DNA of 37,752 bases from Escherichia phage T7. The position numbers and the translations under genes were made by a program. The notes under the pieces were generated by a model. The model did not search any database, was not told where the DNA came from, and saw only the letters and a program-made list of their open reading frames with translations. The DNA is taken from sequence record MZ375255.1; one strand, given 5' to 3'. Within the stretch, counting starts at the first letter, position 1. Every line of letters begins with the position of its first letter. Positions 731-22,865 of this stretch are shown here, one piece after another.

Positions 731-841
731 TGAAACGACAGTGAGTCACCACACTGAAAGGTGATGCGGTCTAACGAAACCTGACCTAAGACGCTCTTTA
801 ACAATCTGGTAAATAGCTCTTGAGTGCATGACTAGCGGATA

Positions 842-885: not shown

Positions 886-904
886 CTGCACGAGGTAACA
901 CAAG

Positions 905-1389: not shown

Positions 1390-1437
1390 CCAACACACTG
1401 AACGCTATCTCATAACGAACATAAAGGACACAATGCA

Positions 1438-2517: not shown

Positions 2518-2523
2518 TAGTCT

Positions 2524-2570
2524 TATCTTACAGGTCATCTGCGGGTGGCCTGAATAGGTACGATTTACTA
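2524..2570 (+). promoter_or_regulatory. RNase III processing site R1
   Basis: Hairpin-forming region immediately upstream of gene 1 RBS. Confidence 0.5.
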
Positions 2571-2587
2571 ACTGGAAGAGGCACTAA

Positions 2588-5239: not shown

Positions 5240-5247
5240 CGCCAAAT

Positions 5248-5270
5248 CAATACGACTCACTATAGAGGGA
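5248..5270 (+). promoter_or_regulatory. T7 promoter phi1.1A
   Basis: CAATACGACTCACTATAGAGGGA. Confidence 0.85.
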
Positions 5271-5274
5271 CAAA

Positions 5275-5315
5275 CTCAAGGTCATTCGCAAGAGTGGCCT
5301 TTATGATTGACCTTC
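5275..5315 (+). promoter_or_regulatory. RNase III site R1.1
   Basis: caaggtcattcgcaagagtggcctttatga hairpin motif. Confidence 0.5.
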
Positions 5316-5322
5316 TTCCGGT

Positions 5323-5345
5323 TAATACGACTCACTATAGGAGAA
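5323..5345 (+). promoter_or_regulatory. T7 promoter phi1.1B
   Basis: TAATACGACTCACTATAGGAGAA. Confidence 0.9.
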
Positions 5346-5423
5346 CCTTAAGGTTTAACTTTAAGACCCTTAAGTGTTAATTAGAGATTTAAATTAAAGA
5401 ATTACTAAGAGAGGACTTTAAGT

Positions 5424-5552
5424 ATGCGTAACTTCGAAAAGATGACCAAACGTTCTAACCGTAATGCTCGTGACTTCGAGGCAACCAAAGGTCGCAAGTT
5501 GAATAAGACTAAGCGTGACCGCTCTCACAAGCGTAGCTGGGAGGGTCAGTAA
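5424..5552 (+). CDS. 1.1: Gp1.1, small basic protein (42 aa)
   Basis: MRNFEKMTKRSNRNARDFEATKGRKLNKTKRDRSHKRSWEGQ; RBS gagg upstream. Confidence 0.85.
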   Translation: MRNFEKMTKRSNRNARDFEATKGRKLNKTKRDRSHKRSWEGQ

Positions 5553-5553
5553 G

Positions 5554-5811
5554 ATGGGACGTTTATATAGTGGTAATCTGGCAGCATTCAAGGCAGCAAC
5601 AAACAAGCTGTTCCAGTTAGACTTAGCGGTCATTTATGATGACTGGTATGATGCCTATACAAGAAAAGATTGCATACGGTTACGTATTGAGGACAGGAGT
5701 GGAAACCTGATTGATACTAGCACCTTCTACCACCACGACGAGGACGTTCTGTTCAATATGTGTACTGATTGGTTGAACCATATGTATGACCAGTTGAAGG
5801 ACTGGAAGTAA
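5554..5811 (+). CDS. 1.2: Gp1.2, inhibitor of host dGTP triphosphohydrolase (85 aa)
   Basis: MGRLYSGNLAAFK...; stop TAA is first 3 nt of phi1.3. Confidence 0.9.
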   Translation: MGRLYSGNLAAFKAATNKLFQLDLAVIYDDWYDAYTRKDCIRLRIEDRSGNLIDTSTFYHHDEDVLFNMCTDWLNHMYDQLKDWK

Positions 5812-5831
5812 TACGACTCAGTATAGGGACA
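5809..5831 (+). promoter_or_regulatory. T7 promoter phi1.3
   Basis: TAATACGACTCAGTATAGGGACA. Confidence 0.9.
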
Positions 5832-5835
5832 ATGC

Positions 5836-5876
5836 TTAAGGTCGCTCTCTAGGAGTGGCCTTAGTCATTTAACCAA
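5836..5876 (+). promoter_or_regulatory. RNase III site R1.3
   Basis: taaggtcgctctctaggagtggcctt hairpin motif. Confidence 0.5.
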
Positions 5877-5891
5877 TAGGAGATAAACATT

Positions 5892-6971
5892 ATGATGAAC
5901 ATTAAGACTAACCCGTTTAAAGCCGTGTCTTTCGTAGAGTCTGCCATTAAGAAGGCTCTGGATAACGCTGGGTATCTTATCGCTGAAATCAAGTACGATG
6001 GTGTACGCGGGAACATCTGCGTAGACAATACTGCTAACAGTTACTGGCTCTCTCGTGTATCTAAAACGATTCCGGCACTGGAGCACTTAAACGGGTTTGA
6101 TGTTCGCTGGAAGCGTCTACTGAACGATGACCGTTGCTTCTACAAAGATGGCTTTATGCTTGATGGGGAACTCATGGTCAAGGGCGTAGACTTTAACACA
6201 GGGTCCGGCCTACTGCGTACCAAATGGACTGACACGAAGAACCAAGAGTTCCATGAAGAGTTATTCGTTGAACCAATCCGTAAGAAAGATAAAGTTCCCT
6301 TTAAGCTGCACACTGGACACCTTCACATAAAACTGTACGCTATCCTCCCGCTGCACATCGTGGAGTCTGGAGAAGACTGTGATGTCATGACGTTGCTCAT
6401 GCAGGAACACGTTAAGAACATGCTGCCTCTGCTACAGGAATACTTCCCTGAAATCGAATGGCAAGCGGCTGAATCTTACGAGGTCTACGATATGGTAGAA
6501 CTACAGCAACTGTACGAGCAGAAGCGAGCAGAAGGCCATGAGGGTCTCATTGTGAAAGACCCGATGTGTATCTATAAGCGCGGTAAGAAATCTGGCTGGT
6601 GGAAAATGAAACCTGAGAACGAAGCTGACGGTATCATTCAGGGTCTGGTATGGGGTACAAAAGGTCTGGCTAATGAAGGTAAAGTGATTGGTTTTGAGGT
6701 GCTTCTTGAGAGTGGTCGTTTAGTTAACGCCACGAATATCTCTCGCGCCTTAATGGATGAGTTCACTGAGACAGTAAAAGAGGCCACCCTAAGTCAATGG
6801 GGATTCTTTAGCCCATACGGTATTGGCGACAACGATGCTTGTACTATTAACCCTTACGATGGCTGGGCGTGTCAAATTAGCTACATGGAGGAAACACCTG
6901 ATGGCTCTTTGCGGCACCCATCGTTCGTAATGTTCCGTGGCACCGAGGACAACCCTCAAGAGAAAATGTAA
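5892..6971 (+). CDS. 1.3: ATP-dependent DNA ligase (359 aa)
   Basis: Adenylation motif KYDGVRG near N-terminus; 359 aa. Confidence 0.97.
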   Translation: MMNIKTNPFKAVSFVESAIKKALDNAGYLIAEIKYDGVRGNICVDNTANSYWLSRVSKTIPALEHLNGFDVRWKRLLNDDRCFYKDGFMLDGELMVKGVDFNTGSGLLRTKWTDTKNQEFHEELFVEPIRKKDKVPFKLHTGHLHIKLYAILPLHIVESGEDCDVMTLLMQEHVKNMLPLLQEYFPEIEWQAAESYEVYDMVELQQLYEQKRAEGHEGLIVKDPMCIYKRGKKSGWWKMKPENEADGIIQGLVWGTKGLANEGKVIGFEVLLESGRLVNATNISRALMDEFTETVKEATLSQWGFFSPYGIGDNDACTINPYDGWACQISYMEETPDGSLRHPSFVMFRGTEDNPQEKM

Positions 6972-6976
6972 TCACA

Positions 6977-7010
6977 CTGGCTCACCTTCGGGTGGGCCTT
7001 TCTGCGTTTA
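6977..7010 (+). terminator. Early terminator TE (rho-independent, for E. coli RNAP)
   Basis: GC-rich hairpin ggctcacc-ttcg-ggtgggcc followed by T-rich tract. Confidence 0.85.
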
Positions 7011-7021
7011 TAAGGAGACAC

Positions 7022-7044
7022 TTTTACGACTCACTAAAGGAGGT
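7022..7044 (+). promoter_or_regulatory. T7 promoter phi1.5, with non-native T at -16 and -15
   Basis: TTTTACGACTCACTAAAGGAGGT; -14..+6 match phi1.5, upstream 3 nt replaced at deletion junction. Confidence 0.75.
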
Positions 7045-7051
7045 ACACACC

Positions 7052-7141
7052 ATGATGTACTTAATGCCATTACTCATCGTCATTGTAGGATGCCTTGCGC
7101 TCCACTGTAGCGATGATGATATGCCAGATGGTCACGCTTAA
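7052..7141 (+). CDS. 1.5: Gp1.5 (29 aa)
   Basis: 30-codon ORF with RBS aggagg; stop TAA is start of phi1.6. Confidence 0.75.
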   Translation: MMYLMPLLIVIVGCLALHCSDDDMPDGHA

Positions 7142-7161
7142 TACGACTCACTAAAGGAGAC
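7139..7161 (+). promoter_or_regulatory. T7 promoter phi1.6
   Basis: TAATACGACTCACTAAAGGAGAC. Confidence 0.9.
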
Positions 7162-7166
7162 ACTAT

Positions 7167-7427
7167 ATGTTTCGACTTCATTACAACAAAAGCGTTAAGA
7201 ATTTCACGGTTCGCCGTGCTGACCGTTCAATCGTATGTGCGAGCGAGCGCCGAGCTAAGATACCTCTTATTGGTAACACAGTTCCTTTGGCACCGAGCGT
7301 CCACATCATTATCACCCGTGGTGACTTTGAGAAAGCAATAGACAAGAAACGTCCGGTTCTTAGTGTGGCAGTGACCCGCTTCCCGTTCGTCCGTCTGTTA
7401 CTCAAACGAATCAAGGAGGTGTTCTGA
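7167..7427 (+). CDS. 1.6: Gp1.6 (86 aa)
   Basis: ORF with RBS immediately after phi1.6. Confidence 0.85.
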
Positions 7428-8009
7428 TGGGACTGTTAGATGGTGAAGCCTGGGAAAAAGAAAACCCGCCAGTACAAGCAACTGGGTGTATAGCTTGCTT
7501 AGAGAAAGATGACCGTTATCCACACACCTGTAACAAAGGAGCTAACGATATGACCGAACGTGAACAAGAGATGATCATTAAGTTGATAGACAATAATGAA
7601 GGTCGCCCAGATGATTTGAATGGCTGCGGTATTCTCTGCTCCAATGTCCCTTGCCACCTCTGCCCCGCAAATAACGATCAAAAGATAACCTTAGGTGAAA
7701 TCCGAGCGATGGACCCACGTAAACCACATCTGAATAAACCTGAGGTAACTCCTACAGATGACCAGCCTTCCGCTGAGACAATCGAAGGTGTCACTAAGCC
7801 TTCCCACTACATGCTGTTTGACGACATTGAGGCTATCGAAGTGATTGCTCGTTCAATGACCGTTGAGCAGTTCAAGGGATACTGCTTCGGTAACATCTTA
7901 AAGTACAGACTACGTGCTGGTAAGAAGTCAGAGTTAGCGTACTTAGAGAAAGACCTAGCGAAAGCAGACTTCTATAAAGAACTCTTTGAGAAACATAAGG
8001 ATAAATGTT

Positions 8010-8017
<8 letters not shown>
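7427..8017 (+). CDS. 1.7: Gp1.7 nucleoside monophosphate kinase (196 aa)
   Basis: 196-aa ORF overlapping 1.6 stop; size and position as T7 1.7. Confidence 0.9.
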
Positions 8018-8350
<333 letters not shown>

Positions 8351-8353
<3 letters not shown>

Positions 8354-8373
8354 TACGACTCACTATTAGGGAA
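8351..8373 (+). promoter_or_regulatory. T7 promoter phi2.5 (A-initiating)
   Basis: TAATACGACTCACTATTAGGGAA. Confidence 0.9.
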
Positions 8374-8418
8374 GACTCCCTCTGAGAAACCAAACGAAAC
8401 CTAAAGGAGATTAACATT

Positions 8419-9117
8419 ATGGCTAAGAAGATTTTCACCTCTGCGCTGGGTACCGCTGAACCTTACGCTTACATCGCCAAGCCGGACTACGGCAACGAAG
8501 AGCGTGGCTTTGGGAACCCTCGTGGTGTCTATAAAGTTGACCTGACTATTCCCAACAAAGACCCGCGCTGCCAGCGTATGGTCGATGAAATCGTGAAGTG
8601 TCACGAAGAGGCTTATGCTGCTGCCGTTGAGGAATACGAAGCTAATCCACCTGCTGTAGCTCGTGGTAAGAAACCGCTGAAACCGTATGAGGGTGACATG
8701 CCGTTCTTCGATAACGGTGACGGTACGACTACCTTTAAGTTCAAATGCTACGCGTCTTTCCAAGACAAGAAGACCAAAGAGACCAAGCACATCAATCTGG
8801 TTGTGGTTGACTCAAAAGGTAAGAAGATGGAAGACGTTCCGATTATCGGTGGTGGCTCTAAGCTGAAAGTTAAATATTCTCTGGTTCCATACAAGTGGAA
8901 CACTGCTGTAGGTGCGAGCGTTAAGCTGCAACTGGAATCCGTGATGCTGGTCGAACTGGCTACCTTTGGTGGCGGTGAAGACGATTGGGCTGACGAAGTT
9001 GAAGAGAACGGCTATGTTGCCTCTGGTTCTGCCAAAGCGAGCAAACCACGCGACGAAGAAAGCTGGGACGAAGACGACGAAGAGTCCGAGGAAGCAGACG
9101 AAGACGGAGACTTCTAA
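8419..9117 (+). CDS. 2.5: Single-stranded DNA-binding protein (232 aa)
   Basis: Acidic C-terminal tail ...DEESEEADEDGDF. Confidence 0.97.
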   Translation: MAKKIFTSALGTAEPYAYIAKPDYGNEERGFGNPRGVYKVDLTIPNKDPRCQRMVDEIVKCHEEAYAAAVEEYEANPPAVARGKKPLKPYEGDMPFFDNGDGTTTFKFKCYASFQDKKTKETKHINLVVVDSKGKKMEDVPIIGGGSKLKVKYSLVPYKWNTAVGASVKLQLESVMLVELATFGGGEDDWADEVEENGYVASGSAKASKPRDEESWDEDDEESEEADEDGDF

Positions 9118-9537
9118 GTGGAACTGCGGGAGAAAATCCTTGAGCGAATCAAGGTGACTTCCTCTGGGTGTTGGGAGTGGCAGGGCGCTACGAACAATAA
9201 AGGGTACGGGCAGGTGTGGTGCAGCAATACCGGAAAGGTTGTCTACTGTCATCGCGTAATGTCTAATGCTCCGAAAGGTTCTACCGTCCTGCACTCCTGT
9301 GATAATCCATTATGTTGTAACCCTGAACACCGTTCCATAGGAACTCCAAAAGAGAACTCCACTGACATGGTAAATAAGGGTCGCTCACACAAGGGGTATA
9401 AACTTTCAGACGAAGACGTAATGGCAATCATGGAGTCCAGCGAGTCCAATGTATCCTTAGCTCGCACCTATGGTGTCTCCCAACAGACTATTTGTGATAT
9501 ACGCAAAGGGAGGCGACATGGCAGGTTACGGCGCTAA
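9118..9537 (+). CDS. 2.8: Gp2.8, HNH-motif protein, paralog of gp7.7 (139 aa, GTG start)
   Basis: GTG start directly after 2.5 stop; HSCDNPLCCNPEH motif; clear similarity to 17872..18264. Confidence 0.8.
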   Translation: MELREKILERIKVTSSGCWEWQGATNNKGYGQVWCSNTGKVVYCHRVMSNAPKGSTVLHSCDNPLCCNPEHRSIGTPKENSTDMVNKGRSHKGYKLSDEDVMAIMESSESNVSLARTYGVSQQTICDIRKGRRHGRLRR

Positions 9538-9985
9538 AGGAATCCGAAAGGTTGGAGCGTTTCGCTCTGGCCTAGAGGACAAGGTTTCAAAGCAGTTGGA
9601 ATCAAAAGGTATTAAATTCGAGTATGAAGAGTGGAAAGTGCCTTATGTAATTCCGGCGAGCAATCACACTTACACTCCAGACTTCTTACTTCCAAACGGT
9701 ATATTCGTTGAGACAAAGGGTCTGTGGGAAAGCGATGATAGAAAGAAGCACTTATTAATTAGGGAGCAGCACCCCGAGCTAGACATCCGTATTGTCTTCT
9801 CAAGCTCACGTACTAAGTTATACAAAGGTTCTCCAACGTCTTATGGAGAGTTCTGCGAAAAGCATGGTATTAAGTTCGCTGATAAACTGATACCTGCTGA
9901 GTGGATAAAGGAACCCAAGAAGGAGGTCCCCTTTGATAGATTAAAAGGAAAGGAGGAAAGAAATAATGGCTCGTGTACAGTTTAA
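9518..9985 (+). CDS. 3: Endonuclease I (Holliday junction resolvase), C-terminus altered by 1-nt frameshift (155 aa vs 149 aa native)
   Basis: MAGYGAKGIRKV...; ends ...DRLKGKEERNNGSCTV instead of ...DRLKRKGGKK; A4 run at 9943-9946. Confidence 0.85.
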   Translation: MAGYGAKGIRKVGAFRSGLEDKVSKQLESKGIKFEYEEWKVPYVIPASNHTYTPDFLLPNGIFVETKGLWESDDRKKHLLIREQHPELDIRIVFSSSRTKLYKGSPTSYGEFCEKHGIKFADKLIPAEWIKEPKKEVPFDRLKGKEERNNGSCTV

Positions 9986-10421
9986 ACAACGTGAATCTAC
10001 TGACGCAATCTTTGTTCACTGCTCGGCTACCAAGCCAAGTCAGAATGTTGGTGTCCGTGAGATTCGCCAGTGGCACAAAGAGCAGGGTTGGCTCGATGTG
10101 GGATACCACTTTATCATCAAGCGAGACGGTACTGTGGAGGCAGGACGAGATGAGATGGCTGTAGGCTCTCACGCTAAGGGTTACAACCACAACTCTATCG
10201 GCGTCTGCCTTGTTGGTGGTATCGACGATAAAGGTAAGTTCGACGCTAACTTTACGCCAGCCCAAATGCAATCCCTTCGCTCACTGCTTGTCACACTGCT
10301 GGCTAAGTACGAAGGCGCTGTGCTTCGCGCCCATCATGAGGTGGCGCCGAAGGCTTGCCCTTCGTTCGACCTTAAGCGTTGGTGGGAGAAGAACGAACTG
10401 GTCACTTCTGACCGTGGATAA
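9966..10421 (+). CDS. 3.5: T7 lysozyme (N-acetylmuramoyl-L-alanine amidase; T7 RNAP inhibitor), 151 aa
   Basis: MARVQFKQRESTDAIFVHCSATKPS...; 151 aa. Confidence 0.97.
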   Translation: MARVQFKQRESTDAIFVHCSATKPSQNVGVREIRQWHKEQGWLDVGYHFIIKRDGTVEAGRDEMAVGSHAKGYNHNSIGVCLVGGIDDKGKFDANFTPAQMQSLRSLLVTLLAKYEGAVLRAHHEVAPKACPSFDLKRWWEKNELVTSDRG

Positions 10422-12291
<1,870 letters not shown>

Positions 12292-12294
<3 letters not shown>

Positions 12295-12314
12295 TACGAC
12301 TCACTAAAGGAGAC
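12292..12314 (+). promoter_or_regulatory. T7 promoter phi4.3
   Basis: TAATACGACTCACTAAAGGAGAC. Confidence 0.9.
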
Positions 12315-12319
12315 ACACC

Positions 12320-12334
12320 AAATTCTTTGAGTAA
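12320..12334 (+). pseudogene. 4.3: Gene 4.3 remnant (last ~15 nt only; start codon and body deleted)
   Basis: phi4.3 followed after 5 nt by aaattctttgagtaa and then gene 4.5 RBS; no ORF present. Confidence 0.55.
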
Positions 12335-12353
12335 TCAAACAGGAGAAACCATT

Positions 12354-12623
12354 ATGTCTAACGTAGCTGAAACTATCCGTCTATCCGATACAGCTGACCA
12401 GTGGAACCGTCGAGTCCACATCAACGTTCGCAACGGTAAGGCGACTATGGTTTACCGCTGGAAGGACTCTAAGTCCTCTAAGAATCACACTCAGCGTATG
12501 ACGTTGACAGATGAGCAAGCACTGCGTCTGGTCAATGCGCTTACCAAAGCTGCCGTGACAGCAATTCATGAAGCTGGTCGCGTCAATGAAGCTATGGCTA
12601 TCCTCGACAAGATTGATAACTAA
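12354..12623 (+). CDS. 4.5: Gp4.5 (89 aa)
   Basis: MSNVAETIRLSDTADQWNRRVHINV...; RBS caggagaaacc. Confidence 0.85.
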   Translation: MSNVAETIRLSDTADQWNRRVHINVRNGKATMVYRWKDSKSSKNHTQRMTLTDEQALRLVNALTKAAVTAIHEAGRVNEAMAILDKIDN

Positions 12624-12667
12624 GAGTGGTATCCTCAAGGTCGCCAAAGTGGTGGCCTTCATGAATA
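12624..12667 (+). promoter_or_regulatory. RNase III site R4.7
   Basis: gagtggtatcctcaaggtcgccaaagtggtggccttcatga hairpin. Confidence 0.55.
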
Positions 12668-12690
12668 CTATTCGACTCACTATAGGAGAT
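12668..12690 (+). promoter_or_regulatory. T7 promoter phi4.7 (now directly upstream of gene 5)
   Basis: CTATTCGACTCACTATAGGAGAT. Confidence 0.8.
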
Positions 12691-12714
12691 ATTACCTCAA
12701 TAGGAGAAATCAAT

Positions 12715-14829
12715 ATGATCGTTTCTGACATCGAAGCTAACGCCCTCTTAGAGAGCGTCACTAAGTTCCACTGCGGGGTTATCTACGACTACTCCACCGC
12801 TGAGTACGTAAGCTACCGTCCGAGTGACTTCGGTGCGTATCTGGATGCGCTGGAAGCCGAGGTTGCACGAGGCGGTCTTATTGTGTTCCACAACGGTCAC
12901 AAGTATGACGTTCCTGCATTGACCAAACTGGCAAAGTTGCAATTGAACCGAGAGTTCCACCTTCCTCGTGAGAACTGTATTGACACCCTTGTGTTGTCAC
13001 GTTTGATTCATTCCAACCTCAAGGACACCGATATGGGTCTTCTGCGTTCCGGCAAGTTGCCCGGAAAACGCTTTGGGTCTCACGCTTTGGAGGCGTGGGG
13101 TTATCGCTTAGGCGAGATGAAGGGTGAATACAAAGACGACTTTAAGCGTATGCTTGAAGAGCAGGGTGAAGAATACGTTGACGGAATGGAGTGGTGGAAC
13201 TTCAACGAAGAGATGATGGACTATAACGTTCAGGACGTTGTGGTAACTAAAGCTCTCCTTGAGAAGCTACTCTCTGACAAACATTACTTCCCTCCTGAGA
13301 TTGACTTTACGGACGTAGGATACACTACGTTCTGGTCAGAATCCCTTGAGGCCGTTGACATTGAACATCGTGCTGCATGGCTGCTCGCTAAACAAGAGCG
13401 CAACGGGTTCCCGTTTGACACAAAAGCAATCGAAGAGTTGTACGTAGAGTTAGCTGCTCGCCGCTCTGAGTTGCTCCGTAAATTGACCGAAACGTTCGGC
13501 TCGTGGTATCAGCCTAAAGGTGGCACTGAGATGTTCTGCCATCCGCGAACAGGTAAGCCACTACCTAAATACCCTCGCATTAAGACACCTAAAGTTGGTG
13601 GTATCTTTAAGAAGCCTAAGAACAAGGCACAGCGAGAAGGCCGTGAGCCTTGCGAACTTGATACCCGCGAGTACGTTGCTGGTGCTCCTTACACCCCAGT
13701 TGAACATGTTGTGTTTAACCCTTCGTCTCGTGACCACATTCAGAAGAAACTCCAAGAGGCTGGGTGGGTCCCGACCAAGTACACCGATAAGGGTGCTCCT
13801 GTGGTGGACGATGAGGTACTCGAAGGAGTACGTGTAGATGACCCTGAGAAGCAAGCCGCTATCGACCTCATTAAAGAGTACTTGATGATTCAGAAGCGAA
13901 TCGGACAGTCTGCTGAGGGAGACACAGCATGGCTTCGTTATGTTGCTGAGGATGGTAAGATTCATGGTTCTGTTAACCCTAATGGAGCAGTTACGGGTCG
14001 TGCGACCCATGCGTTCCCAAACCTTGCGCAAATTCCGGGTGTACGTTCTCCTTATGGAGAGCAGTGTCGCGCTGCTTTTGGCGCTGAGCACCATTTGGAT
14101 GGGATAACTGGTAAGCCTTGGGTTCAGGCTGGCATCGACGCATCCGGTCTTGAGCTACGCTGCTTGGCTCACTTCATGGCTCGCTTTGATAACGGCGAGT
14201 ACGCTCACGAGATTCTTAACGGCGACATCCACACTAAGAACCAGATAGCTGCTGAACTACCTACCCGAGATAACGCTAAGACGTTCATCTATGGGTTCCT
14301 CTATGGTGCTGGTGATGAGAAGATTGGACAGATTGTTGGTGCTGGTAAAGAGCGCGGTAAGGAACTCAAGAAGAAATTCCTTGAGAACACCCCCGCGATT
14401 GCAGCACTCCGCGAGTCTATCCAACAGACACTTGTCGAGTCCTCTCAATGGGTAGCTGGTGAGCAACAAGTCAAGTGGAAACGCCGCTGGATTAAAGGTC
14501 TGGATGGTCGTAAGGTACACGTTCGTAGTCCTCACGCTGCCTTGAATACCCTACTGCAATCTGCTGGTGCTCTCATCTGCAAACTGTGGATTATCAAGAC
14601 CGAAGAGATGCTCGTAGAGAAAGGCTTGAAGCATGGCTGGGATGGGGACTTTGCGTACATGGCATGGGTACATGATGAAATCCAAGTAGGCTGCCGTACC
14701 GAAGAGATTGCTCAGGTGGTCATTGAGACCGCACAAGAAGCGATGCGCTGGGTTGGAGACCACTGGAACTTCCGGTGTCTTCTGGATACCGAAGGTAAGA
14801 TGGGTCCTAATTGGGCGATTTGCCACTGA
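12715..14829 (+). CDS. 5: DNA polymerase gp5 (704 aa)
   Basis: [12 protein letters not shown] (exo motif DxE), family A polymerase motifs; RBS aggagaaatcaat. Confidence 0.98.
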
Positions 14830-14844
14830 TACAGGAGGCTACTC

Positions 14845-14863
14845 CAAAGGCATAAAACTATAG
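14845..14863 (+). pseudogene. 5.3: Gene 5.3 remnant (last 19 nt incl. stop TAG; rest deleted)
   Basis: Only 45 nt separate gene 5 stop and gene 5.5 start; no ORF. Confidence 0.6.
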
Positions 14864-14874
14864 GAGAAATTATT

Positions 14875-15174
14875 ATGGCTATGACAAAGAAATTTAAAGT
14901 GTCCTTCGACGTTACCGCAAAGATGTCGTCTGACGTTCAGGCAATCTTAGAGAAAGATATGCTGCATCTATGTAAGCAGGTCGGCTCAGGTGCGATTGTC
15001 CCCAATGGTAAACAGAAGGAAATGATTGTCCAGTTCCTGACACACGGTATGGAAGGATTGATGACATTCGTAGTACGTACATCATTTCGTGAGGCCATTA
15101 AGGACATGCACGAAGAGTATGCAGATAAGGACTCTTTCAAACAATCTCCTGCAACAGTACGGGAGGTGTTCTGA
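14875..15174 (+). CDS. 5.5: Gp5.5, H-NS-binding protein (99 aa)
   Basis: MAMTKKFKVSFDVTAKMSSDVQAILEKDMLHLCKQVG...; 99 aa. Confidence 0.92.
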   Translation: MAMTKKFKVSFDVTAKMSSDVQAILEKDMLHLCKQVGSGAIVPNGKQKEMIVQFLTHGMEGLMTFVVRTSFREAIKDMHEEYADKDSFKQSPATVREVF

Positions 15175-15383
15175 TGTCTGACTACCTGAAAGTGCTGCAA
15201 GCAATCAAAAGTTGCCCTAAGACTTTCCAGTCCAACTATGTACGGAACAATGCGAGCCTCGTAGCGGAGGCCGCTTCCCGTGGTCACATCTCGTGCCTGA
15301 CTACTAGTGGACGTAACGGTGGCGCTTGGGAAATCACTGCTTCCGGTACTCGCTTTCTGAAACGAATGGGAGGATGTGTCTAA
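15174..15383 (+). CDS. 5.7: Gp5.7, inhibitor of host sigma-S (69 aa)
   Basis: MSDYLKVLQAIKSCPKTFQSNYVRNNASL...; overlaps 5.5 stop. Confidence 0.9.
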   Translation: MSDYLKVLQAIKSCPKTFQSNYVRNNASLVAEAASRGHISCLTTSGRNGGAWEITASGTRFLKRMGGCV

Positions 15384-15541
15384 TGTCTCGTGACCTTGTG
15401 ACTATTCCACGCGATGTGTGGAACGATATACAGGGCTACATCGACTCTCTGGAACGTGAGAACGATAGCCTTAAGAATCAACTAATGGAAGCTGACGAAT
15501 ACGTAGCGGAACTAGAGGAGAAACTTAATGGCACTTCTTGA
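15383..15541 (+). CDS. 5.9: Gp5.9, RecBCD inhibitor (52 aa)
   Basis: MSRDLVTIPRDVWNDIQGYIDSLERENDSLKNQLMEADEYVAELEEKLNGTS; acidic. Confidence 0.9.
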   Translation: MSRDLVTIPRDVWNDIQGYIDSLERENDSLKNQLMEADEYVAELEEKLNGTS

Positions 15542-16430
15542 CCTTAAACAATTCTATGAGTTACGTGAAGGCTGCGACGACAAGGGTATCCTTGTGATGG
15601 ACGGCGACTGGCTGGTCTTCCAAGCTATGAGTGCTGCTGAGTTTGATGCCTCTTGGGAGGAAGAGATTTGGCACCGATGCTGTGACCACGCTAAGGCCCG
15701 TCAGATTCTTGAGGATTCCATTAAGTCCTACGAGACCCGTAAGAAGGCTTGGGCAGGTGCTCCAATTGTCCTTGCGTTCACCGATAGTGTTAACTGGCGT
15801 AAAGAACTGGTTGACCCGAACTATAAGGCTAACCGTAAGGCCGTGAAGAAACCTGTAGGGTACTTTGAGTTCCTTGATGCTCTCTTTGAGCGCGAAGAGT
15901 TCTATTGCATCCGTGAGCCTATGCTTGAGGGTGATGACGTTATGGGAGTTATTGCTTCCAATCCGTCTGCCTTCGGTGCTCGTAAGGCTGTAATCATCTC
16001 TTGCGATAAGGACTTTAAGACCATCCCTAACTGTGACTTCCTGTGGTGTACCACTGGTAACATCCTGACTCAGACCGAAGAGTCCGCTGACTGGTGGCAC
16101 CTCTTCCAGACCATCAAGGGTGACATCACTGATGGTTACTCAGGGATTGCTGGATGGGGTGATACCGCCGAGGACTTCTTGAATAACCCGTTCATAACCG
16201 AGCCTAAAACGTCTGTGCTTAAGTCCGGTAAGAACAAAGGCCAAGAGGTTACTAAATGGGTTAAACGCGACCCTGAGCCTCATGAGACGCTTTGGGACTG
16301 CATTAAGTCCATTGGCGCGAAGGCTGGTATGACCGAAGAGGATATTATCAAGCAGGGCCAAATGGCTCGAATCCTACGGTTCAACGAGTACAACTTTATT
16401 GACAAGGAGATTTACCTGTGGAGACCGTAG
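15528..16430 (+). CDS. 6: 5'-3' exonuclease gp6 (300 aa)
   Basis: 300-aa ORF, FEN/5'-3' exonuclease family; overlaps 5.9 end. Confidence 0.95.
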   Translation: MALLDLKQFYELREGCDDKGILVMDGDWLVFQAMSAAEFDASWEEEIWHRCCDHAKARQILEDSIKSYETRKKAWAGAPIVLAFTDSVNWRKELVDPNYKANRKAVKKPVGYFEFLDALFEREEFYCIREPMLEGDDVMGVIASNPSAFGARKAVIISCDKDFKTIPNCDFLWCTTGNILTQTEESADWWHLFQTIKGDITDGYSGIAGWGDTAEDFLNNPFITEPKTSVLKSGKNKGQEVTKWVKRDPEPHETLWDCIKSIGAKAGMTEEDIIKQGQMARILRFNEYNFIDKEIYLWRP

Positions 16431-16530
16431 CGTATATTGGTCTGGGTCTTTGTGTTCTCGGAGTGTGCCTCATTTCGTGGGGCCTTTGGGACTTAGCCAG
16501 AATAATCAAGTCGTTACACGACACTAAGTG
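16418..16530 (+). pseudogene. 6.3: Gene 6.3 region with apparent frame discontinuity (GTG frame stops at 16502-16504; C-terminal coding continues in -1 frame to TGA 16528-16530)
   Basis: GTG-initiated hydrophobic peptide VETVAYIGLGLCVLGVCLISWGLWDLAR then stop; ...IIKSLHDTK* in adjacent frame. Confidence 0.45.
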
Positions 16531-16550
16531 ATAAACTCAAGGTCCCTAAA

Positions 16551-16573
16551 TTAATACGACTCACTATAGGGAG
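16551..16573 (+). promoter_or_regulatory. T7 class III promoter phi6.5
   Basis: TAATACGACTCACTATAGGGAGA. Confidence 0.95.
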
Positions 16574-16628
16574 ATAGGGGCCTTTACGATTATTACTTTA
16601 AGATTTAACTCTAAGAGGAATCTTTATT

Positions 16629-16883
16629 ATGTTAACACCTATTAACCAATTACTTAAGAACCCTAACGATATTCCAGATGTACCTCGTGCAACCGCTGAG
16701 TATCTACAGGTTCGATTCAACTATGCGTACCTCGAAGCGTCTGGTCATATAGGACTTATGCGTGCTAATGGTTGTAGTGAGGCCCACATCTTGGGTTTCA
16801 TTCAGGGCCTACAGTATGCCTCTAACGTCATTGACGAGATTGAGTTACGCAAGGAACAACTAAGAGATGATGGGGAGGATTGA
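16629..16883 (+). CDS. 6.5: Gp6.5 (84 aa)
   Basis: [27 protein letters not shown]...; RBS agaggaatc. Confidence 0.88.
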
Positions 16884-16887
16884 CACT

Positions 16888-17154
16888 ATGTGTTTCTCAC
16901 CGAAAATTAAAACTCCGAAGATGGATACCAATCAGATTCGAGCCGTTGAGCCAGCGCCTCTGACCCAAGAAGTGTCAAGCGTGGAGTTCGGTGGGTCTTC
17001 TGATGAGACGGATACCGAGGGCACCGAAGTGTCTGGACGCAAAGGCCTCAAGGTCGAACGTGATGATTCCGTAGCGAAGTCTAAAGCCAGCGGCAATGGC
17101 TCCGCTCGTATGAAATCTTCCATCCGTAAGTCCGCATTTGGAGGTAAGAAGTGA
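16888..17154 (+). CDS. 6.7: Gp6.7 head/ejected protein (88 aa)
   Basis: MCFSPKIKTPKMDTNQIRAVEPAPL...; 88 aa. Confidence 0.88.
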   Translation: MCFSPKIKTPKMDTNQIRAVEPAPLTQEVSSVEFGGSSDETDTEGTEVSGRKGLKVERDDSVAKSKASGNGSARMKSSIRKSAFGGKK

Positions 17155-17555
17155 TGTCTGAGTTCACATGTGTGGAGGCTAAGAGTCGCTTCCGTGCAAT
17201 CCGGTGGACTGTGGAACACCTTGGGTTGCCTAAAGGATTCGAAGGACACTTTGTGGGCTACAGCCTCTACGTAGACGAAGTGATGGACATGTCTGGTTGC
17301 CGTGAAGAGTACATTCTGGACTCTACCGGAAAACATGTAGCGTACTTCGCGTGGTGCGTAAGCTGTGACATTCACCACAAAGGAGACATTCTGGATGTAA
17401 CGTCCGTTGTCATTAATCCTGAGGCAGACTCTAAGGGCTTACAGCGATTCCTAGCGAAACGCTTTAAGTACCTTGCGGAACTCCACGATTGCGATTGGGT
17501 GTCTCGTTGTAAGCATGAAGGCGAGACAATGCGTGTATACTTTAAGGAGGTATAA
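17154..17555 (+). CDS. 7: Gp7 host-range/virion protein (133 aa)
   Basis: 133-aa ORF overlapping 6.7 stop (TGATG). Confidence 0.88.
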   Translation: MSEFTCVEAKSRFRAIRWTVEHLGLPKGFEGHFVGYSLYVDEVMDMSGCREEYILDSTGKHVAYFAWCVSCDIHHKGDILDVTSVVINPEADSKGLQRFLAKRFKYLAELHDCDWVSRCKHEGETMRVYFKEV

Positions 17556-17558
17556 GTT

Positions 17559-17858
17559 ATGGGTAAGAAAGTTAAGAAGGCCGTGAAGAAAGTCCCCAAG
17601 TCCGTTAAGAAAGTCGTTAAGGAAGGGGCTAGTCCGGTTAAACAGGTTGCTGGCGGTCTAGCTGGTCTGGCTGGTGGTACTGGTGAAGCACAGATGGTGG
17701 AAGTACCACAAGCTGCCGCACAGATTGTTGACGTACCTGAGAAAGAGGTTTCCACTGAGGACGAAGCACAGACAGAAAGCGGACGCAAGAAAGCTCGTGC
17801 TGGCGGTAAGAAATCCTTGAGTGTAGCCCGTAGCTCCGGTGGCGGTATCAACATTTAA
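17559..17858 (+). CDS. 7.3: Gp7.3 tail-associated protein (99 aa)
   Basis: MGKKVKKAVKKVPKSVKKVVKEG... lysine-rich 99-aa ORF. Confidence 0.9.
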   Translation: MGKKVKKAVKKVPKSVKKVVKEGASPVKQVAGGLAGLAGGTGEAQMVEVPQAAAQIVDVPEKEVSTEDEAQTESGRKKARAGGKKSLSVARSSGGGINI

Positions 17859-17871
17859 TCAGGAGGTTATC

Positions 17872-18264
17872 GTGGAAGACTGCATTGAATGGACCGGAGG
17901 TGTCAACTCTAAGGGTTATGGTCGTAAGTGGGTTAATGGTAAACTTGTGACTCCACATAGGCACATCTATGAGGAGACATATGGTCCAGTTCCAACAGGA
18001 ATTGTGGTGATGCATATCTGCGATAACCCTAGGTGCTATAACATAAAGCACCTTACGCTTGGAACTCCAAAGGATAATTCCGAGGACATGGTTACCAAAG
18101 GTAGACAGGCTAAAGGAGAGGAACTAAGCAAGAAACTTACAGAGTCAGACGTTCTCGCTATACGCTCTTCAACCTTAAGCCACCGCTCCTTAGGAGAACT
18201 GTATGGAGTCAGTCAATCAACCATAACGCGAATACTACAGCGTAAGACATGGAGACACATTTAA
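17872..18264 (+). CDS. 7.7: Gp7.7, HNH-motif protein, paralog of gp2.8 (130 aa, GTG start)
   Basis: RBS aggagg then GTG; HICDNPRCYNIKH motif; similarity to gp2.8. Confidence 0.8.
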   Translation: MEDCIEWTGGVNSKGYGRKWVNGKLVTPHRHIYEETYGPVPTGIVVMHICDNPRCYNIKHLTLGTPKDNSEDMVTKGRQAKGEELSKKLTESDVLAIRSSTLSHRSLGELYGVSQSTITRILQRKTWRHI

Positions 18265-19874
18265 TGGCTGAGAAACGAACAGGACTTGCGGAGGATGGCG
18301 CAAAGTCTGTCTATGAGCGTTTAAAGAACGACCGTGCTCCCTATGAGACACGCGCTCAGAATTGCGCTCAATATACCATCCCATCATTGTTCCCTAAGGA
18401 CTCCGATAACGCCTCTACAGATTATCAAACTCCGTGGCAAGCCGTGGGCGCTCGTGGTCTGAACAATCTAGCCTCTAAGCTCATGCTGGCTCTATTCCCT
18501 ATGCAGACTTGGATGCGACTTACTATATCTGAATATGAAGCAAAGCAGTTACTGAGCGACCCCGATGGACTCGCTAAGGTCGATGAGGGCCTCTCGATGG
18601 TAGAGCGTATCATCATGAACTACATTGAGTCTAACAGTTACCGCGTGACTCTCTTTGAGGCTCTCAAACAGTTAGTCGTAGCTGGTAACGTCCTGCTGTA
18701 CCTACCGGAACCGGAAGGGTCAAACTATAATCCCATGAAGCTGTACCGATTGTCTTCTTATGTGGTCCAACGAGACGCATTCGGCAACGTTCTGCAAATG
18801 GTGACTCGTGACCAGATAGCTTTTGGTGCTCTCCCTGAGGACATCCGTAAGGCTGTAGAAGGTCAAGGTGGTGAGAAGAAAGCTGATGAGACAATCGACG
18901 TGTACACTCACATCTATCTGGATGAGGACTCAGGTGAATACCTCCGATACGAAGAGGTCGAGGGTATGGAAGTCCAAGGCTCCGATGGGACTTATCCTAA
19001 AGAGGCTTGCCCATACATCCCGATTCGGATGGTCAGACTAGATGGTGAATCCTACGGTCGTTCGTACATTGAGGAATACTTAGGTGACTTACGGTCCCTT
19101 GAAAATCTCCAAGAGGCTATCGTCAAGATGTCCATGATTAGCTCTAAGGTTATCGGCTTAGTGAATCCTGCTGGTATCACCCAGCCACGCCGACTGACCA
19201 AAGCTCAGACTGGTGACTTCGTTACTGGTCGTCCAGAAGACATCTCGTTCCTCCAACTGGAGAAGCAAGCAGACTTTACTGTAGCTAAAGCCGTAAGTGA
19301 CGCTATCGAGGCTCGCCTTTCGTTTGCCTTTATGTTGAACTCTGCGGTTCAGCGTACAGGTGAACGTGTGACCGCCGAAGAGATTCGGTATGTAGCTTCT
19401 GAACTTGAAGATACTTTAGGTGGTGTCTACTCTATCCTTTCTCAAGAATTACAATTGCCTCTGGTACGAGTGCTCTTGAAGCAACTACAAGCCACGCAAC
19501 AGATTCCTGAGTTACCTAAGGAAGCCGTAGAGCCAACCATTAGTACAGGTCTGGAAGCAATTGGTCGAGGACAAGACCTTGATAAGCTGGAGCGGTGTGT
19601 CACTGCGTGGGCTGCACTGGCACCTATGCGGGACGACCCTGATATTAACCTTGCGATGATTAAGTTACGTATTGCCAACGCTATCGGTATTGACACTTCT
19701 GGTATTCTACTCACCGAAGAACAGAAGCAACAGAAGATGGCCCAACAGTCTATGCAAATGGGTATGGATAATGGTGCTGCTGCGCTGGCTCAAGGTATGG
19801 CTGCACAAGCTACAGCTTCACCTGAGGCTATGGCTGCTGCCGCTGATTCCGTAGGTTTACAGCCGGGAATTTAA
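18264..19874 (+). CDS. 8: Portal (head-tail connector) protein gp8 (536 aa)
   Basis: MAEKRTGLAEDGAKSVYERLKNDRAPYETRAQNCAQYTIPSLFP...; 536 aa. Confidence 0.97.
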   Translation: MAEKRTGLAEDGAKSVYERLKNDRAPYETRAQNCAQYTIPSLFPKDSDNASTDYQTPWQAVGARGLNNLASKLMLALFPMQTWMRLTISEYEAKQLLSDPDGLAKVDEGLSMVERIIMNYIESNSYRVTLFEALKQLVVAGNVLLYLPEPEGSNYNPMKLYRLSSYVVQRDAFGNVLQMVTRDQIAFGALPEDIRKAVEGQGGEKKADETIDVYTHIYLDEDSGEYLRYEEVEGMEVQGSDGTYPKEACPYIPIRMVRLDGESYGRSYIEEYLGDLRSLENLQEAIVKMSMISSKVIGLVNPAGITQPRRLTKAQTGDFVTGRPEDISFLQLEKQADFTVAKAVSDAIEARLSFAFMLNSAVQRTGERVTAEEIRYVASELEDTLGGVYSILSQELQLPLVRVLLKQLQATQQIPELPKEAVEPTISTGLEAIGRGQDLDKLERCVTAWAALAPMRDDPDINLAMIKLRIANAIGIDTSGILLTEEQKQQKMAQQSMQMGMDNGAAALAQGMAAQATASPEAMAAAADSVGLQPGI

Positions 19875-19894
19875 TACGACTCACTATAGGGAGA
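19872..19894 (+). promoter_or_regulatory. T7 class III promoter phi9
   Basis: TAATACGACTCACTATAGGGAGA. Confidence 0.95.
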
Positions 19895-19973
19895 CCTCAT
19901 CTTTGAAATGAGCGATGACAAGAGGTTGGAGTCCTCGGTCTTCCTGTAGTTCAACTTTAAGGAGACAATAATA

Positions 19974-20897
19974 ATGGCTGAATCTAATGCAGACGTATAT
20001 GCATCTTTTGGCGTGAACTCCGCTGTGATGTCTGGTGGTTCCGTTGAGGAACATGAGCAGAACATGCTGGCTCTTGATGTTGCTGCCCGTGATGGCGATG
20101 ATGCAATCGAGTTAGCGTCAGACGAAGTGGAAACAGAACGTGACCTGTATGACAACTCTGACCCGTTCGGTCAAGAGGATGACGAAGGCCGCATTCAGGT
20201 TCGTATCGGTGATGGCTCTGAGCCGACCGATGTGGACACTGGAGAAGAAGGCGTTGAGGGCACCGAAGGTTCCGAAGAGTTTACCCCACTGGGCGAGACT
20301 CCAGAAGAACTGGTAGCTGCCTCTGAGCAACTTGGTGAGCACGAAGAGGGCTTCCAAGAGATGATTAACATTGCTGCTGAGCGTGGCATGAGTGTCGAGA
20401 CCATTGAGGCTATCCAGCGTGAGTACGAGGAGAACGAAGAGTTGTCCGCCGAGTCCTACGCTAAGCTGGCTGAAATTGGCTACACGAAGGCTTTCATTGA
20501 CTCGTATATCCGTGGTCAAGAAGCTCTGGTGGAGCAGTACGTAAACAGTGTCATTGAGTACGCTGGTGGTCGTGAACGTTTTGATGCACTGTATAACCAC
20601 CTTGAGACGCACAACCCTGAGGCTGCACAGTCGCTGGATAATGCGTTGACCAATCGTGACTTAGCGACCGTTAAGGCTATCATCAACTTGGCTGGTGAGT
20701 CTCGCGCTAAGGCGTTCGGTCGTAAGCCAACTCGTAGTGTGACTAATCGTGCTATTCCGGCTAAACCTCAGGCTACCAAGCGTGAAGGCTTTGCGGACCG
20801 TAGCGAGATGATTAAAGCTATGAGTGACCCTCGGTATCGCACAGATGCCAACTATCGTCGTCAAGTCGAACAGAAAGTAATCGATTCGAACTTCTGA
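19974..20897 (+). CDS. 9: Capsid assembly (scaffolding) protein gp9 (307 aa)
   Basis: Acidic 307-aa ORF MAESNADVYASFGVNSAVMSGG... Confidence 0.95.
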   Translation: MAESNADVYASFGVNSAVMSGGSVEEHEQNMLALDVAARDGDDAIELASDEVETERDLYDNSDPFGQEDDEGRIQVRIGDGSEPTDVDTGEEGVEGTEGSEEFTPLGETPEELVAASEQLGEHEEGFQEMINIAAERGMSVETIEAIQREYEENEELSAESYAKLAEIGYTKAFIDSYIRGQEALVEQYVNSVIEYAGGRERFDALYNHLETHNPEAAQSLDNALTNRDLATVKAIINLAGESRAKAFGRKPTRSVTNRAIPAKPQATKREGFADRSEMIKAMSDPRYRTDANYRRQVEQKVIDSNF

Positions 20898-20910
20898 TAG
20901 ACTTCGAAAT

Positions 20911-20933
20911 TAATACGACTCACTATATGGAGA
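20911..20933 (+). promoter_or_regulatory. T7 class III promoter phi10 carrying T instead of G at +1
   Basis: TAATACGACTCACTATATGGAGA followed by canonical gene 10 leader ccacaacggtttccctctagaaataattttgtttaactttaagaaggagatatacat. Confidence 0.9.
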
Positions 20934-20990
20934 CCACAACGGTTTCCCTCTAGAAATAATTTTGTTTAACTTTAAGAAGGAGATATACAT

Positions 20991-22028: not shown

Positions 22029-22186
22029 TGCTGGGGGTGGCCTCAACGGTCGCTGCTAGTCCCGAAGAGGCGAGTGTTACTTCAACAGAAGAAACCTTAA
22101 CGCCAGCACAGGAGGCCGCACGCACCCGCGCTGCTAACAAAGCCCGAAAGGAAGCTGAGTTGGCTGCTGCCACCGCTGAGCAATAA
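22005..22186 (+). other. 10B: Gene 10 programmed -1 frameshift region and 10B C-terminal extension (ends TAA 22184-22186)
   Basis: Slippery gtggttttcaaag near 10A end; open -1 frame continues to caataa before Tphi. Confidence 0.7.
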
Positions 22187-22235
22187 CTAGCATAACCCCT
22201 TGGGGCCTCTAAACGGGTCTTGAGGGGTTTTTTGC
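22187..22235 (+). terminator. T7 late terminator Tphi
   Basis: ctagcataaccccttggggcctctaaacgggtcttgaggggttttttg hairpin plus U-tract. Confidence 0.97.
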
Positions 22236-22251
22236 TGAAAGGAGGAACTAT

Positions 22252-22842: not shown

Positions 22843-22865
22843 CATTAATAAATAAGGAGGCTCTA

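What the first reader, a model, noticed from the sequence alone, without database searches (positions are those of the whole stretch)
12292..12353. Gene 4.3 deleted; promoter phi4.3 now sits 45 nt upstream of the gene 4.5 start
phi4.3 (+1 at 12309) is followed by aaattctttgagtaa and the gene 4.5 RBS. The 70-codon gene 4.3 that normally starts right after the promoter is missing (about 198 bp). This shortens the gene 4.5 leader.
Basis: partly seen in the sequence, partly recalled or inferred. Interest (0 to 1): 0.35.

Follow-up and report, generated by a model that had tools for sequence, protein, structure and literature searches.

The report
Engineered gene 4.3 deletion in T7
The window is the complete genome of a laboratory-made, genome-reduced bacteriophage T7 mutant, and the missing gene 4.3 is one of several deliberate knock-outs of dispensable genes, so the finding is correct but ordinary and already published.

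Summary
Compared with reference T7 (NC_001604), the window lacks exactly 198 bp (ref 13352-13549), which is codons 1-66 of gene 4.3. Promoter phi4.3 (window 12292-12314, +1 at 12309) is intact. It is followed by the last four codons plus stop of 4.3 (12320-12334), the gene 4.5 Shine-Dalgarno sequence, and an unchanged gene 4.5 (ATG 12354). The phi4.3-to-4.5 leader shrinks from 243 to 45 nt.

This is not a natural feature. The window is a full T7 genome (37,752 bp) with seven deletions. Four of them start exactly at the ATG of a non-essential gene, and all five single-gene deletions keep the next gene's ribosome-binding site. The exact 4.3 junction occurs in only 28 GenBank records, all titled "Mutant Escherichia phage T7 clone T7_nnL/S". 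It is absent from IMG/VR viral contigs. The window is collinear with clone T7_190S (MZ375270.1) and shares all seven deletions. Clone names, deletion set and design match the CRISPR/Cas9 iterative genome-reduction study (CiPGr; Yuan et al., NAR 2022).

Verdict: a designed, promoter- and RBS-sparing knock-out. It is already known and of low interest. The effect on gp4.5 expression is untested and probably modest.

The parts
1..37752 (+). Complete genome of a genome-reduced T7 mutant (terminal repeats at both ends), 2,185 bp shorter than NC_001604, with seven deletions
   Evidence: Collinear over its full length with MZ375270.1 clone T7_190S.
10533..12233 (+). Gene 4A primase/helicase (upstream neighbour). 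The gene 4.2 ORF (11956-12294) overlaps its 3' end and ends inside the phi4.3 promoter, as in wild type.
12270..12319 (+). Inferred left 50-bp homology arm of the repair template (ref 13302-13351), identical to wild type
   Evidence: Inference from the 2x50-bp HR design. Sequence identity.
12292..12314 (+). T7 RNA polymerase class II promoter phi4.3 (-17 to +6), +1 at 12309, identical to the reference
12318..12320 (.). Deletion junction. CCA is present at both edges in wild type, so the breakpoint can be placed anywhere within these 3 nt. The most economical placement is a deletion of ref 13352-13549, starting at the ATG.
12320..12334 (+). Remnant of gene 4.3: last four codons plus stop (AAA TTC TTT GAG TAA = KFFE*), with no start codon left
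12320..12369 (+). Inferred right 50-bp homology arm (ref 13550-13599), identical to wild type
   Evidence: Inference. Identity.
12341..12345 (+). Shine-Dalgarno AGGAG of gene 4.5, 8 nt before the ATG, unchanged
12354..12623 (+). Gene 4.5 (89 aa), identical to the wild-type protein. Literature: Lon-protease inhibitor that counters a toxin-antitoxin defence.
12668..12696 (+). Promoter phi4.7 (+1 at 12685) up to the second clean junction. Gene 4.7 (ref 13927-14334, exact CDS, 408 bp) is deleted at 12696|12697, and the gene 5 ATG at 12715 keeps its RBS.

Best explanation
The 198-bp gap is a designed knock-out of the non-essential T7 gene 4.3, made by Cas9 counter-selection plus homologous recombination. 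Cas9 guided to protospacers inside gene 4.3 cuts wild-type genomes during infection. Only genomes repaired from a plasmid-borne template of two 50-bp arms escape. The inferred arms are ref 13302-13351, ending just before the ATG, and ref 13550-13599, starting 15 nt before the end of the CDS. The result removes codons 1-66. It leaves promoter phi4.3, a 15-nt untranslatable tail of 4.3, and the Shine-Dalgarno sequence and coding sequence of gene 4.5 untouched. The window is one plaque isolate from the serial-transfer CiPGr experiment (Yuan et al., NAR 2022), in which such deletions accumulated. It also carries deletions of 1.4, 3.8, 4.7 and 5.3 and two larger or spontaneous-type losses (0.4-0.6 and 19.5). 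Consequences: no gp4.3 is made. Transcripts started at phi4.3 now reach the 4.5 ATG after 45 nt instead of 243 nt. Because 4.5 keeps its own RBS, the new leader has no significant structure, and 4.5 is also read from upstream class II promoters, gp4.5 output is probably little changed. Shown: the deletion, its exact boundaries, intact flanks, and its restriction to the mutant series. Inferred: the arm coordinates, the attribution to that study, and the expression consequences.
For: The deletion begins at the 4.3 ATG, as do the deletions of 1.4, 4.7 and 5.3 in the same genome, which have 0 nt of microhomology. Two of these (1.4, 4.7) match the annotated CDS exactly. All 17 SpCas9 protospacer+PAM sites lying wholly inside the deleted segment are absent from the window. 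A 48-nt junction query, with fewer than 28 nt on either side, matches in full only 28 of 50,697 phage records. All 28 are 'Mutant Escherichia phage T7 clone ...' (MZ375240-294 and OL964740). There are 0 exact junction matches in IMG/VR. The window is collinear with T7_190S and shares all seven deletions. Depositor locus tags skip number 26. T7_40S has the 4.3 deletion with 4.7 intact, and T7_70L has the 4.7 deletion with 4.3 intact, so these were independent single-gene events. The paper describes 2x50-bp HR arms, whole-gene 'cassette-gene' designs, large and small plaques picked every 10 transfers, clone names such as T7_300L, gp4.7 and gp5.3 as example deletions, and spontaneous large losses at gp0.3-0.6 and gp19.5. 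The new leader folds no better than shuffles (z = 0.03). No sigma-70-like promoter or terminator is created.
Against: The accession list (Supplementary Table S10) and the cassette design tables are not held, so the link between the GenBank series and the paper is inferred from clone names and content, and so are the exact arm coordinates. No record of exactly 37,752 bp carrying the junction was found in the collection, so the window's own accession is not identified. A 3-nt CCA microhomology sits at the junction. The reason 15 nt of 4.3 were kept is not documented in what I could read.
Confidence: 0.93

Rival explanations
1. Spontaneous deletion by illegitimate recombination or replication slippage at the CCA microhomology, which arose during serial passage and was then inherited by descendants.
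For: A 3-nt CCA repeat is present at both edges. The same genome has a clearly spontaneous-type deletion at 19.5, flanked by a 9-bp direct repeat, and a 563-bp loss in 0.4-0.6 that does not follow gene boundaries. The 28 carriers could share the junction by descent.
Against: The left edge falls exactly at the ATG, and so do three other deletions in the genome, which have no microhomology at all. Three nt of homology is expected by chance about once in 64 junctions and is far shorter than the 9-bp repeat at the spontaneous-type 19.5 deletion. The deletion is in frame and spares both the promoter and the downstream RBS. The experiment supplied a whole-gene HR template for this gene.
Confidence: 0.04
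2. A natural T7 lineage or close relative that never had, or lost in nature, gene 4.3.
For: gp4.5 homologues are found in 808 phage records but gp4.3 homologues in only 362, so distant relatives can carry 4.5 without a detectable 4.3.
Against: Apart from the deletions, the window's long collinear blocks are 99.9-100% identical to T7. A 15-nt tail of T7's own 4.3 remains. No natural isolate in 50,697 records and no IMG/VR contig has the junction. All carriers are labelled as mutants.
Confidence: 0.01
3. Assembly or sequencing artefact that collapsed 198 bp.
For: The record shows likely homopolymer or terminal-repeat assembly noise elsewhere (C5 to C4 and G5 to G4 in the terminal repeat; A5 to A4 in gene 3).
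Against: The same junction appears in 28 independently assembled clone genomes, while others from the same series retain 4.3. No repeat long enough to collapse an assembly flanks the segment. The paper verified such deletions by PCR.
Confidence: 0.01

Closest known systems
Mutant Escherichia phage T7 clone T7_190S (MZ375270.1) and the other 27 junction-carrying clones (MZ375240-294, OL964740.1)
   Same: Identical 4.3 junction. T7_190S is collinear with the window over the whole genome and shares all seven deletions and the phi10 +1 G>T change.
   Different: The window differs from T7_190S by 17 substitutions and a few small indels, including a 10-bp indel near the right end and a 1-nt deletion in gene 3. 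The lengths are 37,752 and 37,751 bp. The window's own accession was not identified.
Wild-type T7 (NC_001604 / V01146), region phi4.3 - gene 4.3 - gene 4.5
   Same: The promoter, the 4.5 RBS, the 4.5 coding sequence and everything downstream through phi4.7 to the 4.7 deletion junction are base-for-base identical.
   Different: Wild type has the 70-codon gene 4.3 between the promoter and 4.5, giving a leader of 243 nt against 45 nt here.
CiPGr whole-gene ('cassette-gene') deletions, Yuan et al., Nucleic Acids Res 2022 (PMC9825161)
   Same: Cas9 plus 2x50-bp HR template, non-essential T7 genes removed one at a time and accumulated over transfers. Clone naming is T7_<transfer><L/S>. The paper names gp4.7 and gp5.3 deletions and large losses at gp0.3-0.6 and gp19.5.
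   Different: Nothing observed differs. The design table and accession table could not be read, so the identity of design and junction was not checked directly.
Other engineered T7 deletions of this region (DCHR deletion of gp4.3-4.7, PMC12664982; PhageMaP gene 4.3 knock-outs, PMC11482910)
   Same: They treat 4.3 as dispensable and remove it by recombination-based engineering.
   Different: DCHR removes the whole 1.02-kb 4.3-4.7 block including 4.5. Here 4.5 and both promoters phi4.3 and phi4.7 are kept, and 4.3 and 4.7 are removed separately.

Membership tests
Bacteriophage T7 (Teseptimavirus T7) genome | Collinear, near-identical sequence to the T7 reference, bounded by direct terminal repeats | tested here: met
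   The long collinear blocks are 99.9-100% identical (the 1.3-kb left-end block is 98.1%). TCTCACAGTGTACGG... is present at both ends.
T7 class II promoter phi4.3 | 23-bp T7 RNA polymerase promoter (-17 to +6) at the position homologous to ref 13341 | tested here: met
   TAATACGACTCACTAAAGGAGACA at 12292-12315 is identical to ref 13324-13347. The deletion starts at +11 to +12.
T7 class II promoter phi4.3 | Transcription actually initiates at +1 (window 12309) in the mutant | not testable with these tools
   Needs 5' RACE or RNA-seq.
CiPGr cassette-gene deletion mutant (Yuan et al. 2022) | The deletion removes the targeted gene's protospacers, so the genome escapes Cas9 | tested here: met
   17 of 17 NGG protospacer sites lying wholly inside ref 13352-13549 are absent from the window.
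CiPGr cassette-gene deletion mutant (Yuan et al. 2022) | Deletion boundaries set by a designed template (gene-limit anchored, flanks unchanged for at least 50 bp each side), not by repeats | tested here: met
   The left edge is at the ATG. The 50 bp on each side are identical to wild type. The same ATG-anchored pattern holds for 1.4, 4.7 and 5.3 with 0-nt microhomology.
CiPGr cassette-gene deletion mutant (Yuan et al. 2022) | The junction equals the published HR template, and the accession is listed in Supplementary Table S10 | not testable with these tools
   No supplementary files are held, and the accession strings are not found in searchable text.
CiPGr cassette-gene deletion mutant (Yuan et al. 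2022) | The same junction is shared with deposited clones named by transfer number and plaque size | tested here: met
   28 records carry it, e.g. T7_40S, T7_190S and T7_5t2. The paper uses T7_300L and T7_100_t2.
Spontaneous T7 deletion between short direct repeats | The deleted segment is flanked by a direct repeat of several bp, one copy retained | tested here: not met
   Only 3 nt (CCA) flank the 4.3 deletion. By contrast, the 19.5 deletion in the same genome has a 9-bp repeat, ATAGAGTCA.

The most novel reading that the evidence does not exclude
The scar may not be neutral. Bringing phi4.3 to 45 nt from the 4.5 ATG, and abolishing translation of 4.3 just upstream, could alter gp4.5 (Lon-inhibitor) dosage. 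That change, rather than loss of gp4.3 alone, could have contributed to the persistence of this allele through later transfers while 4.5 itself was retained between two deleted neighbours.
Probability: 0.1. Interest if true: 0.15.

Novelty: already known. Interest (0 to 1): 0.04.

Why it matters
It matters mainly as a classification result. The window is a synthetic-biology product, so its missing genes and shortened leaders say nothing about natural phage evolution or regulation. The clean, promoter- and RBS-sparing deletion confirms that gene 4.3 is dispensable for T7 growth on laboratory E. coli, which was already established. For a genome scan, recognising such records avoids mistaking engineered scars for biological novelties.

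Tried and rejected
1. I searched the paper library for the accession numbers (MZ375233, MZ375270, MZ375294, OL964739, OL964740, and the prefixes MZ3752 and OL9647). No relevant paper turned up.
2. I tried to read the CiPGr supplementary tables, which hold the accessions and cassette designs. None are held.
3. I looked for the junction in IMG/VR viral contigs and found 0 matches.
4. I tested whether the new 45-nt leader forms a structure that could occlude the RBS. The MFE is -10.6 kcal/mol with z = 0.03, indistinguishable from shuffles. The wild-type context is likewise unstructured, with z = 0.40.
5. I scanned the junction region for newly created host-type promoters or intrinsic terminators and found none.
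6. I considered spontaneous repeat-mediated deletion and rejected it for the 4.3 deletion: it has only 3 nt of homology and its left edge sits at the ATG. The 19.5 deletion fits that mechanism.
7. I considered natural absence of 4.3 and rejected it. It is common only in distant relatives, not in T7-identical genomes.
8. The MAFFT alignment misplaces the gap to the left, so I took the exact boundaries from the anchored extension instead.

Full report
**1. What is in the sequence**

Reading the window shows the following, in order:
- the end of gene 4 (stop at 12233);
- the overlapping gene 4.2 ORF, ending at 12294;
- TAATACGACTCACTAAAGGAGACA starting at 12292, so the initiating G is at 12309;
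- gagacacacc, then aaattctttgagtaa (12320-12334);
- atcaaacAGGAGaaaccatt, then ATG at 12354.

The ATG at 12354 opens an 89-codon ORF that ends at 12623.

**2. Comparison with T7**

The region matches T7 records at 100% identity, but in two pieces that span 329 bp for a 131-bp query. In the annotated reference:
- phi4.3 is at 13341;
- gene 4.3 is at 13352-13564 (70 codons, 'not essential in T7');
- gene 4.5 is at 13584-13853.

Whole-genome BLAST and anchored junction extension give window 10511-12320 = ref 11543-13352 and window 12318-12696 = ref 13548-13926.

- Exactly 198 bp are missing.
- The breakpoint is ambiguous within CCA.
- The simplest placement is a deletion of ref 13352-13549, which is the ATG through codon 66.
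- The retained aaattctttgagtaa encodes the last four residues (KFFE) plus the stop of gp4.3.
- gp4.5 is unchanged.
- The phi4.3-to-4.5 leader falls from 243 to 45 nt.

**3. What the window is**

It begins and ends with the T7 terminal repeat and is 2,185 bp shorter than NC_001604. The shortfall comes from seven deletions plus small losses in the terminal repeats:

| Deletion | Reference coordinates | Size | Notes |
|---|---|---|---|
| 0.4-0.6 | about 1342-1904 | 563 bp | 1-nt microhomology |
| 1.4 | 7608-7763 | 156 bp | exact CDS |
| 3.8 | 11254-11545 | 292 bp | |
| 4.3 | 13352-13549 | 198 bp | |
| 4.7 | 13927-14334 | 408 bp | exact CDS |
| 5.3 | 16483-16820 | 338 bp | starts at the ATG |
| 19.5 | between 9-bp direct repeats | 189 bp | repeat ATAGAGTCA |

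Four deletions (1.4, 4.3, 4.7, 5.3) start exactly at the ATG of a non-essential gene. The three others in this group have no microhomology. All five single-gene deletions, including 3.8, preserve the Shine-Dalgarno sequence of the next gene. This is the signature of design, not of illegitimate recombination.

**4. Provenance**

I used a 48-nt junction query built so that neither side alone could seed megablast. It matched in full only 28 of 50,697 phage records: MZ375240 to MZ375294 (27 records) and OL964740.1.

- All inspected records are titled 'Mutant Escherichia phage T7 clone T7_40S / T7_190S / T7_5t2'.
- Their locus tags keep the wild-type numbering and skip number 26, which is gene 4.3.
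- Natural T7-like phages matched only the right-hand 28 nt, inside their intact gene 4.3.
- IMG/VR has no exact match to the junction.
- The window aligns end to end with T7_190S, shares all seven deletions, and differs by 17 substitutions and a few indels. It is a sister isolate.
- T7_40S has the 4.3 deletion with 4.7 intact, and T7_70L has the 4.7 deletion with 4.3 intact. The two deletions were acquired independently, one gene at a time.

The matching study is Yuan et al., Nucleic Acids Res 2022 (PMC9825161). [quoted passage not shown]

- Each 200-bp cassette carries a spacer and a 2x50-bp homologous-recombination template.
- 'Cassette-gene' designs delete an entire gene.
- Structural genes, essential genes and 'likely regulatory elements' were not targeted.
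- T7 was serially transferred 300 times. Eight large (L) and eight small (S) plaques were picked every 10 transfers, and 60 T7 mutants were sequenced.
- The paper names clones T7_300L and T7_100_t2.
- It uses the gp4.7 and gp5.3 deletions as examples.
- It reports spontaneous large losses at gp0.3-0.6, gp4.3-4.7 and gp19.5.

All of this fits the window. The accession list sits in a supplementary table that is not held, and text searches for the accessions found nothing. The attribution is therefore a strong inference, not a direct read-out.

**5. Mechanism**

Shown:
- All 17 SpCas9 protospacer+PAM sites lying wholly inside the deleted 198 bp are absent from the window, so the genome escapes any guide against gene 4.3.
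- The 50 bp on either side of the junction are identical to wild type.

Inferred:
- The repair template was ref 13302-13351 joined to 13550-13599.
- The 15-nt tail was kept to leave the region upstream of gene 4.5 undisturbed. The 5.3 deletion likewise leaves 19 nt, and the 3.8 deletion leaves 45 nt that contain the gene 4A RBS and start.

**6. Consequences**

- No gp4.3 can be made, because no start codon remains.
- The promoter (-17 to +6) and the first 11 transcribed nucleotides are unchanged, so phi4.3 should still fire. This is inferred and not testable here.
- The new 5' leader has no significant secondary structure (MFE -10.6 kcal/mol, z = 0.03). The wild-type context is also unstructured.
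- No host-type promoter or terminator is created.
- From established knowledge of T7, class II genes are also transcribed from upstream class II promoters with no terminator before Tphi. Gene 4.5 mRNA therefore does not depend on phi4.3 alone.
- I conclude that gp4.5 output is probably little affected. Loss of any translational coupling to 4.3, whose stop lies 19 nt upstream of the 4.5 ATG, cannot be excluded.

Literature context:
- gp4.5 inhibits Lon and thereby counters a toxin-antitoxin defence.
- gp4.3 has no known function in PHROGs.
- A 2024 preprint predicts that gp4.3 and gp4.5 are weak counters of a RADAR system, with about a 70% loss of plating efficiency on deletion.
- Deleting gp4.3-4.7 is a routine demonstration in newer engineering methods.

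**7. Rival explanations**

- **Spontaneous deletion at the CCA microhomology.** This is disfavoured by the ATG-anchored edge, the same pattern at three other genes without any homology, and the availability of a designed template.
- **Natural absence of 4.3.** It occurs in distant relatives (gp4.5 in 808 records against gp4.3 in 362). It does not occur in any genome that is otherwise T7-identical.
- **Assembly artefact.** This is excluded because 28 independent records carry the junction while siblings from the same series retain 4.3.

**8. Verdict**

The finding is real and correctly interpreted. It is a designed knock-out in a published, deposited laboratory mutant, so it is already known and of low interest.

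The more curious items are side observations, listed separately:
- A phi10 +1 G>T substitution is confined to the later clones of the series.
- The 1.4 deletion clips the first bases of promoter phi1.5.
- The 3.8 deletion fuses the 3.8 start codon in frame to gene 4A.

Noticed in passing
window 20928 (phi10 promoter, ref 22904): The +1 G of the strong class III promoter phi10 (major capsid gene) is changed to T (TATAGGGAGA to TATATGGAGA). A 61-nt query matches at 100% only 33 records, all MZ375256-MZ375294, the later accessions of the mutant series. It is absent from MZ375233 and from every other T7 record listed, all of which show one mismatch. The change is therefore confined to this series, consistent with arising and spreading during serial transfer, and may tune late-gene expression.
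   Followed up: partly
window 7022-7046 (phi1.5 promoter; 1.4 deletion junction at 7024|7025): The exact-CDS deletion of gene 1.4 also removes its TAA stop codon, which forms positions -17 to -15 of promoter phi1.5. The promoter now starts TTTTACGACTCAC... instead of TAATACGACTCAC..., so -16 and -15 change from AA to TT. This may weaken phi1.5.
   Followed up: partly
window 10485-10535 (3.8 deletion junction at 10513|10514): The 292-bp deletion inside gene 3.8 puts the 3.8 ATG, whose RBS and promoter phi3.8 are intact, in frame with gene 4A. This creates a 582-aa [25 protein letters not shown]..., so a primase/helicase with a 16-residue N-terminal extension may be made alongside normal 4A and 4B. 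The sibling GenBank record annotates the fused ORF as the primase/helicase.
   Followed up: partly
window ~9943 (gene 3, endonuclease I; ref 10682): A 1-nt deletion in an A5 run changes the last residues of endonuclease I (RKGGKK* becomes GKEERNNGSCTV*) and extends the ORF to 9985, across the gene 3.5 start. It is not present in sibling T7_190S. It could be a real frameshift or a homopolymer sequencing error.
   Followed up: partly
window 1-140 and 37613-37752 (terminal repeats): Both terminal repeats are 140 nt instead of 160 nt. They have lost 18 nt between GGGTT repeats, and C5 and G5 are shortened to C4 and G4. Sibling T7_190S has 143-nt repeats. This may be real or an end-assembly artefact.
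   Followed up: no
window 37444-37452 (19.5 deletion) and 1321 (0.4-0.6 deletion): The two deletions that do not follow gene boundaries look spontaneous. The 189 bp at gene 19.5 lie between 9-bp direct repeats (ATAGAGTCA). The 563 bp from mid-0.4 into 0.6B have 1-nt microhomology. The paper reports undesigned large-fragment losses at gp0.3-0.6 and gp19.5.
   Followed up: partly
window 385 (phiOL promoter +1, ref 405): A to G at the annotated +1 of phiOL (TATAAGGAGA becomes TATAGGGAGA, closer to consensus). It is shared with sibling T7_190S. I did not check whether it predates the experiment.
   Followed up: no
window 12568-12717: After the 4.7 deletion, the sequence upstream of gene 5 is open and in frame, giving a 753-aa ORF from an ATG at 12568. 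Sibling records annotate the DNA polymerase with a start upstream of the true gene 5 ATG, overlapping the end of 4.5. The true gene 5 start, with its RBS, is at 12715. This is an annotation artefact, not biology.
   Followed up: yes
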